Shown here piece after piece: positions 7,985 to 54,233 of a DNA stretch of 64,000 nt (within the stretch, counting starts at the first letter, position 1; every line of letters starts with the position of its first letter). Source of the stretch: Eledone cirrhosa (Eukaryota); NCBI GenBank assembly GCA_964016885.1, contig OZ024743.1, positions 118,048,001 to 118,112,000 of the forward strand, in the 5' to 3' direction. The notes below the pieces were generated by a model that worked only from the letters and a program-made list of their open reading frames with translations, was not told where the DNA came from and did not search any database. A program made the position numbers and the translations under genes.

Positions 7985-9563
7985 TATGCATATATATACA
8001 TATATATATAAGAGAGTATTGAAGTTTGCTTGAAGCATTGTGGAATAATAAGATATATTTTTTCTTTAGGTCGCTTTGGAAGCCTCAACAATGCAGATGG
8101 GTAATTCTCCGGGTAACAAGATCCAGTGGTGGAGAGAGAGATGTAAGTGAATGTAGATTGAGATGTATAGTGCGTAGAAGAACGTAGGAAAGAGCGTAAA
8201 AAATAAAAAAATAATAACACGAGATAGAGTTACCTTGGGAGAGATTTAATTGTCCCTATATATTTCGGATTCACATCCATCAACTGGGGGGCGTTTTCCG
8301 GGGTGAGGGGAAATTGTTGTCCGTCGGAAAGGTGCGAAAGGTGTCCTCCGCTGTTCGTTGTTTTGAATATCTGAGGTATTCAGCAGAGCACGCGTGCGCG
8401 TGAAATAGGGTCGATCAAATATAGGCGGCGGCCGAAATAGTTCTTTTAATTGTGGGAGTGGGGTGGCGTTAGCTGTCAATCCATTGTATTATCTGCCCGT
8501 GCTGGTTTCAGTATTAGCAGTGTTGAATAGTGCGTGGTGGTTGTAGTATTCTCTGCCTGTTTGGTGAATGTTACTGTGTGTGTGTGTTGTTGTTGTCTCG
8601 CTTGTGTGTGTGTGTGCGTGTGTTGTTGCCTCGTTCGTCTGTATTAGCAGTGTAGTATGTTCGTATGGTGGCATGCTACTGTGTGAGTGTGTTGCTGTCT
8701 CACTTGTCTGTGTGTGTGTGTGCGTGTGTTGTATCGTTTGTTTACTTAAGCCAACCACCTCATTTCGCTTCTCTCGGATCGGTTATTTATTCGTGGCCCT
8801 AGGCGTTTGATCCACAGTGCTTCCTTGATTCGTAATGTGCCGACGTTTCTTTCCGAAGCTAGAATTGTAACAATGTGCCTTCCGTCTTTGTTTTAGCATT
8901 TGGTTATGTGTTTCCGGAAAGACGAGGCCCTGGTGTTAATGTGCTCCTTGATCCGGATGTGTAGCGGCCGGATTGTGCTACCTATTTAGTAGTGGTTGCA
9001 CTTGTTACATTCTATCTTATACACGACGTATGTGCGTAGGCAACAATTCGTATGGCGCATCGGGATGTTTCTGAGGGAGCACAAGTCAGTCATTTCCCGG
9101 GTTTCCTGGAGAGGTATCATAGCAGGCAGGGGCCCCAGTGGGCCAGGTGGATGTCGAGGCCCTCCCTCCGTATAGCCTTGCGGATAGCGTTGGTGGTATT
9201 CTCGCCCAGGTGTGGTATTTTAAGGAAGCACTTGCCTTGGGCGTTTCTCTGCCTCTTGCGCCTGGTGTCTCTTATTCTGTTTGTGAGTGAGGCAGGGTAC
9301 CCGTTCGTCTTCAGCACTTTGAGGAATCGCTTGGTATGAGTGACACCACTCGCGGGATCGCTGCATCTGTTTTTAATTCGCGAGATCTCGTTCGTGATGT
9401 ATCCTCTTTTAGCACTGTTAGGGAAGGCGGACTTGTAGTGGACGAACAGGTCTTTGCAGGCTGCCTATCGGTAGAAGTTGCAGTGGATCCCTCCTTGTTT
9501 CGTGATGTTGTTTCGGAAGTCTAGGAGGGCAAGTGACCCGTCGAGGAGGGCAAGTGACCCATC
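7985..9563 (-). mobile_element. 5'-truncated Penelope-like element (RT C-terminus + GIY-YIG endonuclease pseudogene + CA-rich 3' UTR)
   Basis: Minus-strand translation gives GSLALLD..FYR..DLFVHYKSA, LKTNGYP, FLKIPHLGE, VVYKIECNKCNHY*IGSTIRPLHIRIKEH, LRIKEA; clearly homologous to 53085-54385. Confidence 0.9.
8254..8291 (-). ncRNA. Atypical minimal hammerhead-like motif in PLE 3' region
   Basis: CCCCCC-AGUUGAU-GGAU(GUGA)AUCC-GAAA-UAUAUA-GGG; stem II covaries with the copy at 54200-54233. Confidence 0.5.
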
Positions 9564-9564
9564 G

Positions 9565-9844
9565 TAATATATAATATTATAAAGCTGAGTGTCGTGTGTA
9601 TGAATTATGTATGTATCATACACACCTCCCTATAGTTTCTTAGCTTTACTCTCTCCGTCGCTCTTCCCTCTCTCTACAATAGATCATTCTCCCTCTTTAT
9701 AATTTAACTCCTTTACTCCCTCTGTCGCTCTTCACTCTCTATATGACGGAAGGACAACGTGACACGGCTGGGTGTGTGGTATCTTTTGCAGTGGAGTGGT
9801 GGGGGCAGGTATACCTACCAGCGGCCAGCCGGACGGGCCATTAG
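9565..9844 (+). mobile_element. Non-autonomous Helitron-like element
   Basis: 5' TATAATATTATAAAGCTGAG resembles animal Helitron starts; GC-rich subterminal segment followed by TTAG-T (degenerate CTAG-T). Confidence 0.5.
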
Positions 9845-10186
9845 TTTATATATATATATATATATATATATGGGAGCATATACAATATTTTTACATATAA
9901 TAAACAAACACAAGTCTCATCGTGATAAATATATATGTATATATATATGTGTATGTGTGTGCATACACACATTCAAGTTGAAAGGCGAAGAAAGGAGGAG
10001 AGATAGATAGGGAAGGAGATAGTCAGAAAAGGATAAGACAAAGTGACACTGTCTAACAATAATTCAATGTAAAAGGTTTTTATCGCCAAAGATTTGTCTT
10101 ATTCATATCTCTGTATCGATCTCAGTGTATACTTAAATTCATGCACCCATAAACACTCATACAGTAACACACACTAACATTTACGC

Positions 10187-11270
10187 GCGCACACACACAC
10201 ACACACACACACACACACACACACACACACACACACACACACACACACACACATACACACACACACACACACATATATATATATATATATATATATATAT
10301 ATATATATATATATATATATATATATATATATATATATATATTATAGAATACTGTTGGCTTTTTACTACAATATTTTCTAAACCTTTCATTTATATATAT
10401 ATATATATATATATATAAATATATATATATATATATATATATACATATATATATAATATATATATATATTATATATATATATATAATATATATATATATG
10501 TAAATATATGCACACATACAAATCTAAATTTACTTTTAATATCGAAGATTTATTTCCGCATATACACATACGTGCGTACACATACTCATATACACACTCA
10601 CACACACGAGCACACGCACGCACACACACACACGCACAAATACACACACATGCACACACACACACACACACATACACACATACATACACACACACACACA
10701 CATATATATATATATATACCCATATATGTATACATATATATATACTTACTTTCTCTCAAAAATCAAGAAACCAAGCGAATCAACATAACGTACGCTTCGT
10801 TGCAATCAATTGAATATTATTGAACCAAACGATACAGCCTTATTAGGCACTCACAAAGATAGTAGTGGTGCATTATATATATATATATATATATATATAT
10901 ATATATATATATATATATATGTATTTATGCGTGAGTGTGTGTGTGTGTGTGTATTTATTTATTTACACATACAGACATACCCGATCACACAAAACATATT
11001 CACACACTCACGCACACACACACACACACACACACACACACACACACACACACAAATATCTATATATATCTATATCTGTCTCTCTCTCTATATATGTATG
11101 TATGTATGTATGTATGTATGTATGTATGTATGTATGTATGTATGTGTGTGTATATATATATATATATATATATATATATATATATATATATATATATATA
11201 TATATATATATATGTGTGTGTGTGTGTGTGTGTGTGTGTTTGTGCGCGTGTGTGTGTGTGTGCGTGTGTG
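10187..11270. repeat. Compound microsatellite block: (CA)n, (AT)n, (TATG)n, (TG)n
   Basis: Read directly; explains the low-complexity ORFs in this interval. Confidence 0.97.
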
Positions 11271-52447: not shown

Positions 52448-52924
52448 GGTAGCCACGCTACCGAAGAAAAAAATATTTTGGGTACGAAAAAAAATTATTT
52501 TCTCTATTTTCCTCTGTGACTATATTACAGAGTTGACAATATGTCAGACAGAGCTGTTTCAAGATTTGTTAATCTTTCATTAGTGACACTGCTTCAAAAT
52601 GTACCATCCATATGTTTATTGTTTATAAACGTATTATATATGTTTATATGTTTACCTATACACTTCTATTATGCTTAAGTAATGTGTTAGTGCTACTGCC
52701 ACTATATGCAAATGAGTATCGCCAGCGAATGACCAATACATAGACTATATATTTCATGCTAGTATGTTTTGAGTGAGCGCTATTGATGAAGATAATGAAA
52801 TCTTGAAACAGCGCTGTGTGACATTCTTAGAACATGCTGACAACACTGTGTTATTATTACAGAGGAAGCTAGAGTAAAATATATTGGTTACGGAAAAATA
52901 TTTTTATTCGGCATTGAGGCTACC
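52448..52924. mobile_element. Foldback-like non-autonomous DNA element with imperfect TIRs of about 150 bp or more
   Basis: GGTAGCCACGCTACCGAAGAAAAAAATATTTT against AAAATATTTTTATTCGGCATTGAGGCTACC; ATGTCAGACAGAGCTGTTTCAAGATTT against AAATCTTGAAACAGCGCTGTGTGACAT. Confidence 0.8.
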
Positions 52925-53111
52925 CATATATTTTTGTATATTAAAGTATTGTATATGATTATATATGATTTTATACACATCGCTGTTATGCTAAATTGAT
53001 CTCATAGTGCTACCGTGAATATATATATATATATATATATATATATATATATATATATATATATATATATATATATATATATATGAGGGTGTTAAAAAAC
53101 TTAATATTAGC

Positions 53112-53597
53112 AGGTGCTTCTTTAAAATCCCCCACCTGAGTGAATATACCACGAACGCCATCCGCAGGGCCATACGGACGGAGGGACTTGACATACATTT
53201 GGCCCACACAGGACCTTCGCTGCGAAGATGCCTCTCCAACAAACCCTACGAGGCAGATGGGACGTGTTCCCTCAGCAACTGCCCGATACGGGGGGCAGAT
53301 TGCCTACGCACCTATGTCGTATATAAGATTCAATGCGATAAATGTAACAAGTTTTACATAGGTAGCACCATCCGACCCCTACATGTTCGTATCAAGGAAC
53401 ATATCAACACCAACGCATCTTCCTTCCGTAAACATATCCTTAAATGCGGAAACCCACAGGGTAGACCCTTGGTCACAGTCCTAGCGACTGAACGCAGCAT
53501 CGGATCCTTAAGGATAAAGGAAGCACTTGTCATTAAGAACCTCAGACCCCCACTTAACAACCGGGCTGAGAGAAATGAGCTGACATGGCTAACTTAA
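53112..53597 (+). CDS. Penelope-like element C-terminal GIY-YIG endonuclease (5'-truncated, open frame)
   Basis: RCFFKIPHLSE..CSLSNCPIRGADC (Cys linker)..VVYKIQCDKCNKFYIGSTIRPLHVRIKEH..FRKH..LRIKEALVI..LN. Confidence 0.85.
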   Translation, partial: RCFFKIPHLSEYTTNAIRRAIRTEGLDIHLAHTGPSLRRCLSNKPYEADGTCSLSNCPIRGADCLRTYVVYKIQCDKCNKFYIGSTIRPLHVRIKEHINTNASSFRKHILKCGNPQGRPLVTVLATERSIGSLRIKEALVIKNLRPPLNNRAERNELTWLT

Positions 53598-54199
53598 CCA
53601 TAATGACCATTCACAGCCTACGGCCTGCTATCTTCACACACACGCACGTATATGCATACCCATACGCATACACACACACACATCTATATTTATACACGCA
53701 CACATGTTTTTACAACCTACCACCTTTCACACCCTTTGATTTCCAGCTTCTACAGCCCACTATCTTTCACACACAAACGCACTCACACATATACACACAC
53801 AGTTACACACACATGTATACCCATACGCTTACACACACACATCTATATTTATACACGCACACATATTTTACAACCTACCACCTTTCACACCCTTTGATTT
53901 CCAACTTCTACAGCCCACTATCTTTCACACACACACTCACACATATACACACTTACACTTATACACACACAGTTACACACACATATATATTTACATACAC
54001 ATATCTTACGGCTTTCACACGCTAACGCACCCTCTTGATTTAACCCATTTGGTCAGTAGCTTTTGCCACAGCCTATCACTGCACGCGCATTCTTTCCCTC
54101 GTTTAAATTTTAAATATTTTTCTCCCCATAACGGTATTCCTGTCTTAACGACATCACAACTTTCTCCGCTTGGCCTGTTTCCCCCCTTTTGGAACTTTT

Positions 54200-54233
54200 G
54201 CCCCGTTGATGGGCGTGAGCCCAAAATATTGGG
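54200..54233 (+). ncRNA. Atypical minimal hammerhead-like motif (second PLE copy)
   Basis: CCC-CGUUGAU-GGGC(GUGA)GCCC-AAAA-UAUU-GGG. Confidence 0.4.

What the first reader, a model, noticed from the sequence alone, without database searches (positions are those of the whole stretch)
8254..54233. Atypical-core hammerhead-like RNA conserved with compensatory changes between two diverged Penelope-like elements
Seen: at the same position in otherwise poorly alignable 3' UTRs, copy 1 (8254-8291, minus) has CCC-AGUUGAU-GGAU[GUGA]AUCC-GAAA-UAUAUA-GGG. Copy 2 (54200-54233, plus) has CCC-CGUUGAU-GGGC[GUGA]GCCC-AAAA-UAUU-GGG. Two base pairs of the stem covary (AU/AU to GC/GC), and the GNRA loop, the CCC/GGG outer stem and GUUGAU are retained. 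The topology matches a minimal type I HHR, but the canonical CUGANGA is replaced by NGUUGAU in both copies. Inference: a selected RNA structure, possibly a non-canonical hammerhead variant or an HHR-derived RT-recognition element specific to this PLE lineage.
Basis: partly seen in the sequence, partly recalled or inferred. Interest (0 to 1): 0.8.

Follow-up and report, generated by a model that had tools for sequence, protein, structure and literature searches.

The report
Penelope hammerhead with a rewritten core
Thousands of copies of a jumping-gene family carry a hammerhead-shaped RNA motif in which two normally fixed core letters are changed family-wide while the rest of the core and the stem pairing are kept, so it is likely a slowed self-cutting RNA, though cutting is untested.

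Summary
The motif is real and family-wide: 4,873 genomic matches against 5 for the reversed control. Read as C3-M4-G5-U6-U7-G8-A9 plus the usual extra base, only U4 and A6 depart from the consensus; C3-G8, G5, A9, G12-A15.1, U16.1 and H17 are kept. Relatives in the same genome show the steps: canonical core, then position 4 free (C, A, G), then A6U shared by these two sister families. A6 is kept in 27 of 27 outside relatives. The stems covary across families, and the core stayed fixed while silent sites fell to 45% identity. Both families have copies with long unbroken reading frames between two such motifs. Cleavage is untested: no RNA data; insertion junctions at the predicted cut site are inconclusive; published mutagenesis predicts low activity. 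Best reading: a strongly slowed, dimer- or protein-assisted ribozyme (0.45); main rival: a non-cutting structural element (0.38). This core was not in the papers searched (Lunse 2017 not held). The scan noted other core variants in other genomes, none like this. New variant of a known kind.

The parts
8011..9543 (-). Family-1 Penelope-like element, 5'-truncated: broken RT-thumb/GIY-YIG remnant (about 9543-8746, several stops and frameshifts), 3' UTR/pLTR, tail with the ORF start codon (8038-8036), ending at a (TA)n run
   Evidence: (90-93% to natural copy L457)
8254..8289 (-). Variant minimal hammerhead, copy 1: stem I 8289-8287 with 8256-8254; C3 8286, A4 8285, G5 8284, U6 8283, U7 8282, G8 8281, A9 8280, extra U 8279; stem II 8278-8275 with 8270-8267; G12-A15.1 8266-8263; six-base palindrome 8263-8258; A17 8257; predicted cut between 8257 and 8256
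   Evidence: sequence; register; cut site inferred from the hammerhead consensus
53093..54389 (+). Family-2 Penelope-like element, 5'-truncated, between (TA)n runs; 98.8% to natural copy L239; ends about 159 nt past the predicted cut, without the tail
53085..53597 (+). Open C-terminal frame with a Cys-containing linker and GIY-YIG endonuclease domain
   Evidence: PF01541, 24.1 bits, cut-off 22.6
54200..54234 (+). Variant minimal hammerhead, copy 2: C3 54203, C4 54204, G5 54205, U6 54206, U7 54207, G8 54208, A9 54209, extra U 54210; stem II 54211-54214 with 54219-54222; position 12 at 54223 (A here, G in the family); A15.1 54226, U16.1 54229, U17 54230; stem I 3' strand from 54231. This copy lacks the general base G12
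   Evidence: sequence; family state

Best explanation
The motif is the minimal type I hammerhead of a Penelope-like clade with U4 and A6 changed family-wide, and it likely still cuts its own RNA, but slowly and probably only as a dimer or with the element's protein bound. Shown: homology to canonical PLE hammerheads, the register, the covarying stems, a palindromic helix III, family-wide fixation, and copies made from RNA that was uncut at the 3' motif. Inferred: in a tandem transcript two motifs would pair through their palindromes, G12 and G8 would act as base and acid, and a cut after position 17 would trim a minority of transcripts. Because reverse transcription starts about 160-200 nt downstream of the motif and must pass through it, fast cutting would destroy the template, so a damped core would be tolerated or favoured.
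For: Kept in both families: C3, G5, G8, A9, G10.1-C11.1, G12, A13, A14, A15.1-U16.1; position 17 is A, U or C and never G in the 14 rows. At least 12 of 13 core columns are identical between families 1 and 2 although four-fold sites are 58 of 129 identical (crude binomial P 5e-4), so constraint lasted after A6U. 9 of 11 pairs show two-sided changes, 97.4% of cells pair, slid controls 25-49%. Helix III stays self-complementary through changes. Full-length copies carry two motifs 3.45 kb apart around an unbroken 879-codon frame (L689). Precedents: U4C is tolerated (PMC9608096, passage); a natural A6C core cuts poorly in Mg2+ but well in Mn2+ (PMC7151607); a PLE hammerhead cut only with its protein and was not needed for insertion (PMC11167929). 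Weak: 9 of 45 head-to-head junction centres lie within 2 nt of the site, 3.7 expected (P 0.01 for that site).
Against: Pairwise mutagenesis of one hammerhead found all single and double mutants of this region low except the C3/G8 swap (PMC9901934, passages). Folding predicts that U6 lets G5-U6-U7 pair with A14-A15.1-U, an alternative to the junction (tied or near-tied minimum-energy folds, pair probabilities about 0.3-0.5 in family 1/3, under 0.3 in family 2). None of 13 upstream pLTRs of family 2 starts at the site and 9 run through an intact motif; no 5' end at the site among the segments mapped. The junction excess is not significant as a scan (P 0.30), a control region has its own cluster (6 of 41), and family 4 shows 1 of 26 junctions with both ends at its site. 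C3 lies in a C run in families 1 and 2, which weakens its conservation as evidence.
Confidence: 0.45

Rival explanations
1. The motif no longer cuts: it is a hammerhead descendant kept as a folded handle for the element's protein, for RNA dimerisation, or for control of translation of the ORF 171-218 nt downstream.
For: Two U-turn positions changed; predicted extension of stem II by the changed core; copies derive from uncut RNA; hammerhead cleavage was dispensable for insertion in vitro (PMC11167929); G8, A9, G12, A13, A14 could be kept for the stacked G-A pairs alone (recalled structural knowledge).
Against: Does not easily explain retention of G5, the C3-G8 pair and H17, which matter for the active fold; the alternative pairing is only predicted and no better than tied in energy; in PAc the minimal RNA for insertion lay in the first 172 nt of the ORF and insertion did not need the whole pLTR (PMC11167929).
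Confidence: 0.38
2. The motif is a dead vestige drifting towards loss; the elements spread regardless of it, as hammerhead-less Naiads do.
For: PLE clades without canonical hammerheads thrive (PMC8557442); stepwise loss of U4 then A6 looks like erosion; young family 2 amplified with the double variant (many 887-codon frames).
Against: Compensatory stem II changes between the two A6U families; core conserved at saturating silent divergence while the UTR upstream does not align.
Confidence: 0.1
3. The sequence is conserved as DNA (pLTR promoter element or the endonuclease's AT-rich target), and the RNA fold is incidental.
For: It lies in the pLTR, which holds the promoter (PMC6765202, passage); junctions cluster on AT-rich bases just downstream.
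Against: Two-sided base-pair changes in all helices and direct homology to canonical hammerheads.
Confidence: 0.05

Closest known systems
Minimal type I hammerheads of metazoan Penelope-like elements (Cervera and De la Pena 2014, PMC4209133)
   Same: Place in the pLTR, two copies around the ORF, short helix I, extra base between 9 and 10.1, G10.1-C11.1, GAAA, palindromic 15.2-16.2 without a real helix III, U-rich 5' flank.
   Different: Their consensus is CUGANGAH; all 56 representatives in the supplement's Fig. S3 text start CUGA or UUGA. Here position 4 is A or C and position 6 is U.
CCGA (U4C) hammerheads of viroids and viroid-like RNAs (PMC9608096; bioRxiv 10.64898/2026.09.16.752053)
   Same: U4C, as in family 2, family 4 and part of family 0.
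   Different: Type III, A6 intact; U4A and U4G, fixed in subfamilies here, are not described in the passages read.
Bcep176 A6C hammerhead (PMC3088659 section 8; PMC7151607)
   Same: Natural change at position 6 with the rest of the core kept.
   Different: A6C, single phage example, U4 intact, tested (slow in Mg2+, active in Mn2+); here A6U plus a changed position 4 in thousands of copies, untested.
PAc (Anolis Poseidon) protein-assisted hammerhead (PMC11167929)
   Same: PLE pLTR hammerhead upstream of the RT start sites, two 3' ends (tail), insertion from uncut RNA.
   Different: That motif overlaps the start codon and was shown to cut with protein; nothing was assayed here.

Membership tests
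PLE minimal type I hammerhead | Helix I and helix II with covarying pairs around the core | tested here: met
   97.4% of cells paired, 9 of 11 pairs with two-sided change in 14 hand-picked family rows
PLE minimal type I hammerhead | C3-G8 pair, G5, A9, G12, A13, A14 | tested here: met
   (family state; window copy 2 has a private G12A)
PLE minimal type I hammerhead | U4 and A6 of the CUGA turn | tested here: not met
   A4 or C4 and U6 in 35 of 35 family-1 and 39 of 39 family-2 rows
PLE minimal type I hammerhead | Extra base between 9 and 10.1; G10.1-C11.1 | tested here: met
PLE minimal type I hammerhead | A15.1-U16.1, palindromic helix III, H17 | tested here: met
PLE minimal type I hammerhead | Two copies in the pLTRs around the ORF | tested here: met
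   L689, L685, L686
Hammerhead ribozyme (functional class) | Self-cleavage after position 17 | not testable with these tools
   no RNA holder listed; junction proxy inconclusive
Rfam hammerhead families | Match to an Rfam hammerhead model | tested here: not met
   none among the 150 of 218 rows shown; none for 54150-54290 at E up to 10; copy 1 not scanned alone
Penelope-like element with C-terminal endonuclease | Single ORF, RT then GIY-YIG with CCHH residues; pLTR tandem, inverted truncated partners, tail | tested here: met
Neptune or Nematis clade | CX2-5CxxC linker and RT phylogeny with reference elements | tested here: inconclusive
   linker reads C-x4-C-x6/7-C with (TA)n targets; no reference PLE proteins were in the trees

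The most novel reading that the evidence does not exclude
A natural hammerhead that cleaves without the CUGA uridine turn: a C-M-G-U core rescued by dimer formation, the element's own RT-endonuclease protein or a different metal, reached stepwise (canonical, then free position 4, then A6U) in one retroelement lineage. It would widen the hammerhead consensus and imply that fixed-core searches miss whole families, possibly including PLEs now scored as hammerhead-less.
Probability: 0.3. Interest if true: 0.75.

Novelty: new variant of a known kind. Interest (0 to 1): 0.52.

Why it matters
What PLE hammerheads do is an open question. This clade offers a natural series in one genome (canonical, U4C/A/G, then A6U), with young full-length elements, so cleavage rate can be set against transposition success. 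If the double variant cuts, two textbook-invariant positions are dispensable in context; if it does not, it is a clear case of a ribozyme fold kept after catalysis was lost. Either way, descriptors that demand CUGA miss about 4,900 copies here.

Tried and rejected
Decay of single copies: rejected. GNRA loop as a required part: rejected. Thermodynamic stability alone: weak (z -0.7 for copy 1, -2.3 for copy 2). Junction pile-up as proof of cutting: 38 of 92 ends at -1 to +8 (100 of 116 matches listed) and a similar look, but both patterns select on flank letters; the opposite selection (read by eye) was flatter; the unbiased set gave P 0.01 at the site and 0.30 as a scan (centres entered by hand); controls undercut it; family 1 (4 junctions) and the canonical family (11) were too few; an ORF anchor gave 0 but lies farther from the 3' end; an upstream control region was not searched. 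RNA: no RNA holder listed, which is no evidence on expression. Contigs of four runs showed no other letter over the core, at depth under 6 in two of them: not used. An alternative five-pair helix between the core and the bases just 3' of stem I was considered by eye and was not among the best folds. Family 0's U4 may partly be CpG decay of C4, so a canonical direct ancestor is likely but not proven.
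Full report
Observation. Both strings are in the window as described. They sit 490-600 nt behind GIY-YIG endonuclease frames of two 5'-truncated Penelope-like elements (PLEs): 9543-8011 on the minus strand and 53093-54389 on the plus strand. Longer natural copies carry RT and GIY-YIG in one frame. The closest named protein is an uncharacterised Octopus bimaculoides protein at 55%. 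The two families are 66-68% identical in protein and 58 of 129 identical at four-fold sites.

Family-wide, not decay. A pattern for the variant core gives 4,873 matches in the 3.0-Gb genome against 5 for the reversed control. Among the 30 best loci of each family (30 of 40 scored, from 3,098 and 1,559 candidates) all 35 family-1 rows that hold the motif and all 39 family-2 rows have U at the position that should be A6; a 36th family-1 row is a junction without the motif, and some family-2 copies are seen twice through overlapping loci. The AAAA of window copy 2 is private (G in 38 of 39).

The register. PLE minimal hammerheads carry an extra base between A9 and G10.1 (PMC4209133, main text parts 1-2 of 4 and supplement parts 1-2 of 3 read; consensus CUGANGAH). 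Counting eight bases instead of seven gives C3-A4-G5-U6-U7-G8-A9-U for family 1 and C3-C4-G5-U6-U7-G8-A9-U for family 2. Only U4 and A6 then differ from the consensus. On 14 hand-picked rows, one per family or outside relative, this structure pairs 97.4% of cells, 9 of 11 pairs show two-sided changes, no shuffle of 500 reaches the pairing or the covariation score, and slid controls give 25-49% (related sequences inflate the shuffle test).

Intermediates. An old family in the same genome, here family 0, has homologous flanks and the same stems as family 1 but A6 in 36 of 40 rows, with C (15) or U (20) at position 4; 8 of 48 rows were left out by the filter, four of them family 1/3 and four family-0-like. 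Part of the U4 may be CpG decay. Family 4, with about 900-codon frames, reads C3-C4-G5-A6 in 45 of 45 rows. A further pattern gave 515 matches against 8, largely subfamilies with G4, A4 or C4 and A6; some A4 copies may be CpG decay of G4. A separate canonical family has 8,528 matches against 8. Quick trees put families 1 and 2 together (SH-aLRT 100; 82 on the short endonuclease region), family 0 next (96) and families 4-7 outside. Among metagenome loci of more distant relatives (35-45% identity), A6 stands in 27 of 27 distinct motifs and U4 in 24 (top 31 of 39 matches, four used to build the model). The simplest history is canonical core, then relaxation of position 4, then one A6U change before families 1 and 2 split. 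This order is inferred from weakly rooted trees.

Selection after A6U. At least 12 of 13 core columns are identical between the two families while silent sites are at 45% (crude P 5e-4), and stem II changed by two compensatory pairs. Both families have copies with long open frames and a motif on each side (L689: 879 codons from the start codon, motifs 3.45 kb apart, start codon 171 nt after the predicted cut; L685 and L686 for family 1, with partly damaged frames), and family 2 has many 887-codon frames, so the variant core did not block amplification.

Does it cut? No RNA run was listed. Family-2 copies end about 155-159 or about 200 nt past the site, matching the two RT start sites and tail of PLEs (PMC11167929, parts 1-2 of 4 read), so each copy that joins ORF to tail was copied from RNA uncut at its 3' motif. 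As a proxy I looked for 5' ends at the predicted cut. Selected sets showed an excess (38 of 92 ends at -1 to +8). In the unbiased head-to-head set 9 of 45 centres lie within 2 nt, 3.7 expected (P 0.01 at the site, 0.30 for any window). A downstream control has its own cluster at a palindrome (6 of 41), family 4 clusters on AT palindromes with 1 of 26 junctions having both ends at the site, and none of 13 upstream pLTRs found in 30 family-2 loci starts there. The proxy is inconclusive. Folding predicts that U6 allows G5-U6-U7 to pair with A14-A15.1-U at about the energy of the open junction, which families 0, 4 and 5 do not show.

Literature. U4C is tolerated (PMC9608096, one passage; bioRxiv 10.64898/2026.09.16.752053, three passages). 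A natural A6C core is slow in Mg2+ and active in Mn2+ (PMC3088659, passages and section 8; PMC7151607, parts 1-2 of 4). Pairwise mutagenesis found this region intolerant (PMC9901934, passages; supplements not read). PLE hammerheads are slow even as dimers (PMC4209133; PMC6765202, passages), one needs its protein (PMC11167929), and Naiads spread without canonical ones (PMC8557442, passages). PMC6155905, PMC12192606 (passages) and bioRxiv 10.64898/2026.07.22.740005 (part 1 of 5) added nothing on this core. No report of a U4+A6U core appeared in searches; Lunse et al. 2017, Nelson and Uhlenbeck 2008 and Martick and Scott 2006 were not held, and the first could contain such variants. Roles of G8 and G12 are from PMC6155905; the stacked G-A pairs are recalled.

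Verdict. The thing works like, and descends from, the PLE minimal hammerhead, but fails the CUGA criterion, so it is filed as a variant, not a plain member. I give 0.45 to a strongly slowed, dimer- or protein-assisted ribozyme, 0.38 to a non-cutting structural element, 0.10 to a vestige and 0.05 to a DNA-level role. Earlier scan notes list other PLE core variants in other genomes and nothing on this sequence or genome; they were not checked and did not change the reading.

Noticed in passing
window 2748-2935, 17120-17307, 20380-20523, 22915-23104, 27705-27887, 34158-34324, 45127-45238, 55568-55745: A dispersed repeat of about 180-190 bp, 84-95% alike, in both orientations; SINE- or MITE-like, not classified.
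   Followed up: no
window 58801-62472 and 34793-35458: Helitron pieces: Helitron-like N domain and PIF1 helicase; the 34.8-kb frame resembles the first by DNA match but had no Pfam hit.
   Followed up: partly
L364:1238-1284, L340:1559-1603, L351:1233-1278, L372:1074-1119: Hammerheads of metagenome PLE relatives show the 3-8 pair as G-C, A-U and U-A as well as C-G, with A6 kept; A3-U8 was not seen in the papers read.
   Followed up: no
L458-L487 (G000): Subfamilies with G4 or A4 and intact A6, hundreds of copies: position 4 appears free in this clade.
   Followed up: partly
L088, L023, L041, L075: A further hammerhead family in this genome with a U3-A8 core, no extra base and a six-base palindrome.
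   Followed up: no
L184, L216, L192, L299, L423: Near-perfect head-to-head palindromes of two element ends joined at or next to the predicted cut without prior microhomology; near-symmetric junctions are common along the pLTR and suggest fold-back or twin-end joining.
   Followed up: partly
window 53600-54041: The family-2 3' UTR holds an internal duplication of about 140-250 nt of CA-rich sequence whose copy number varies among elements.
   Followed up: no
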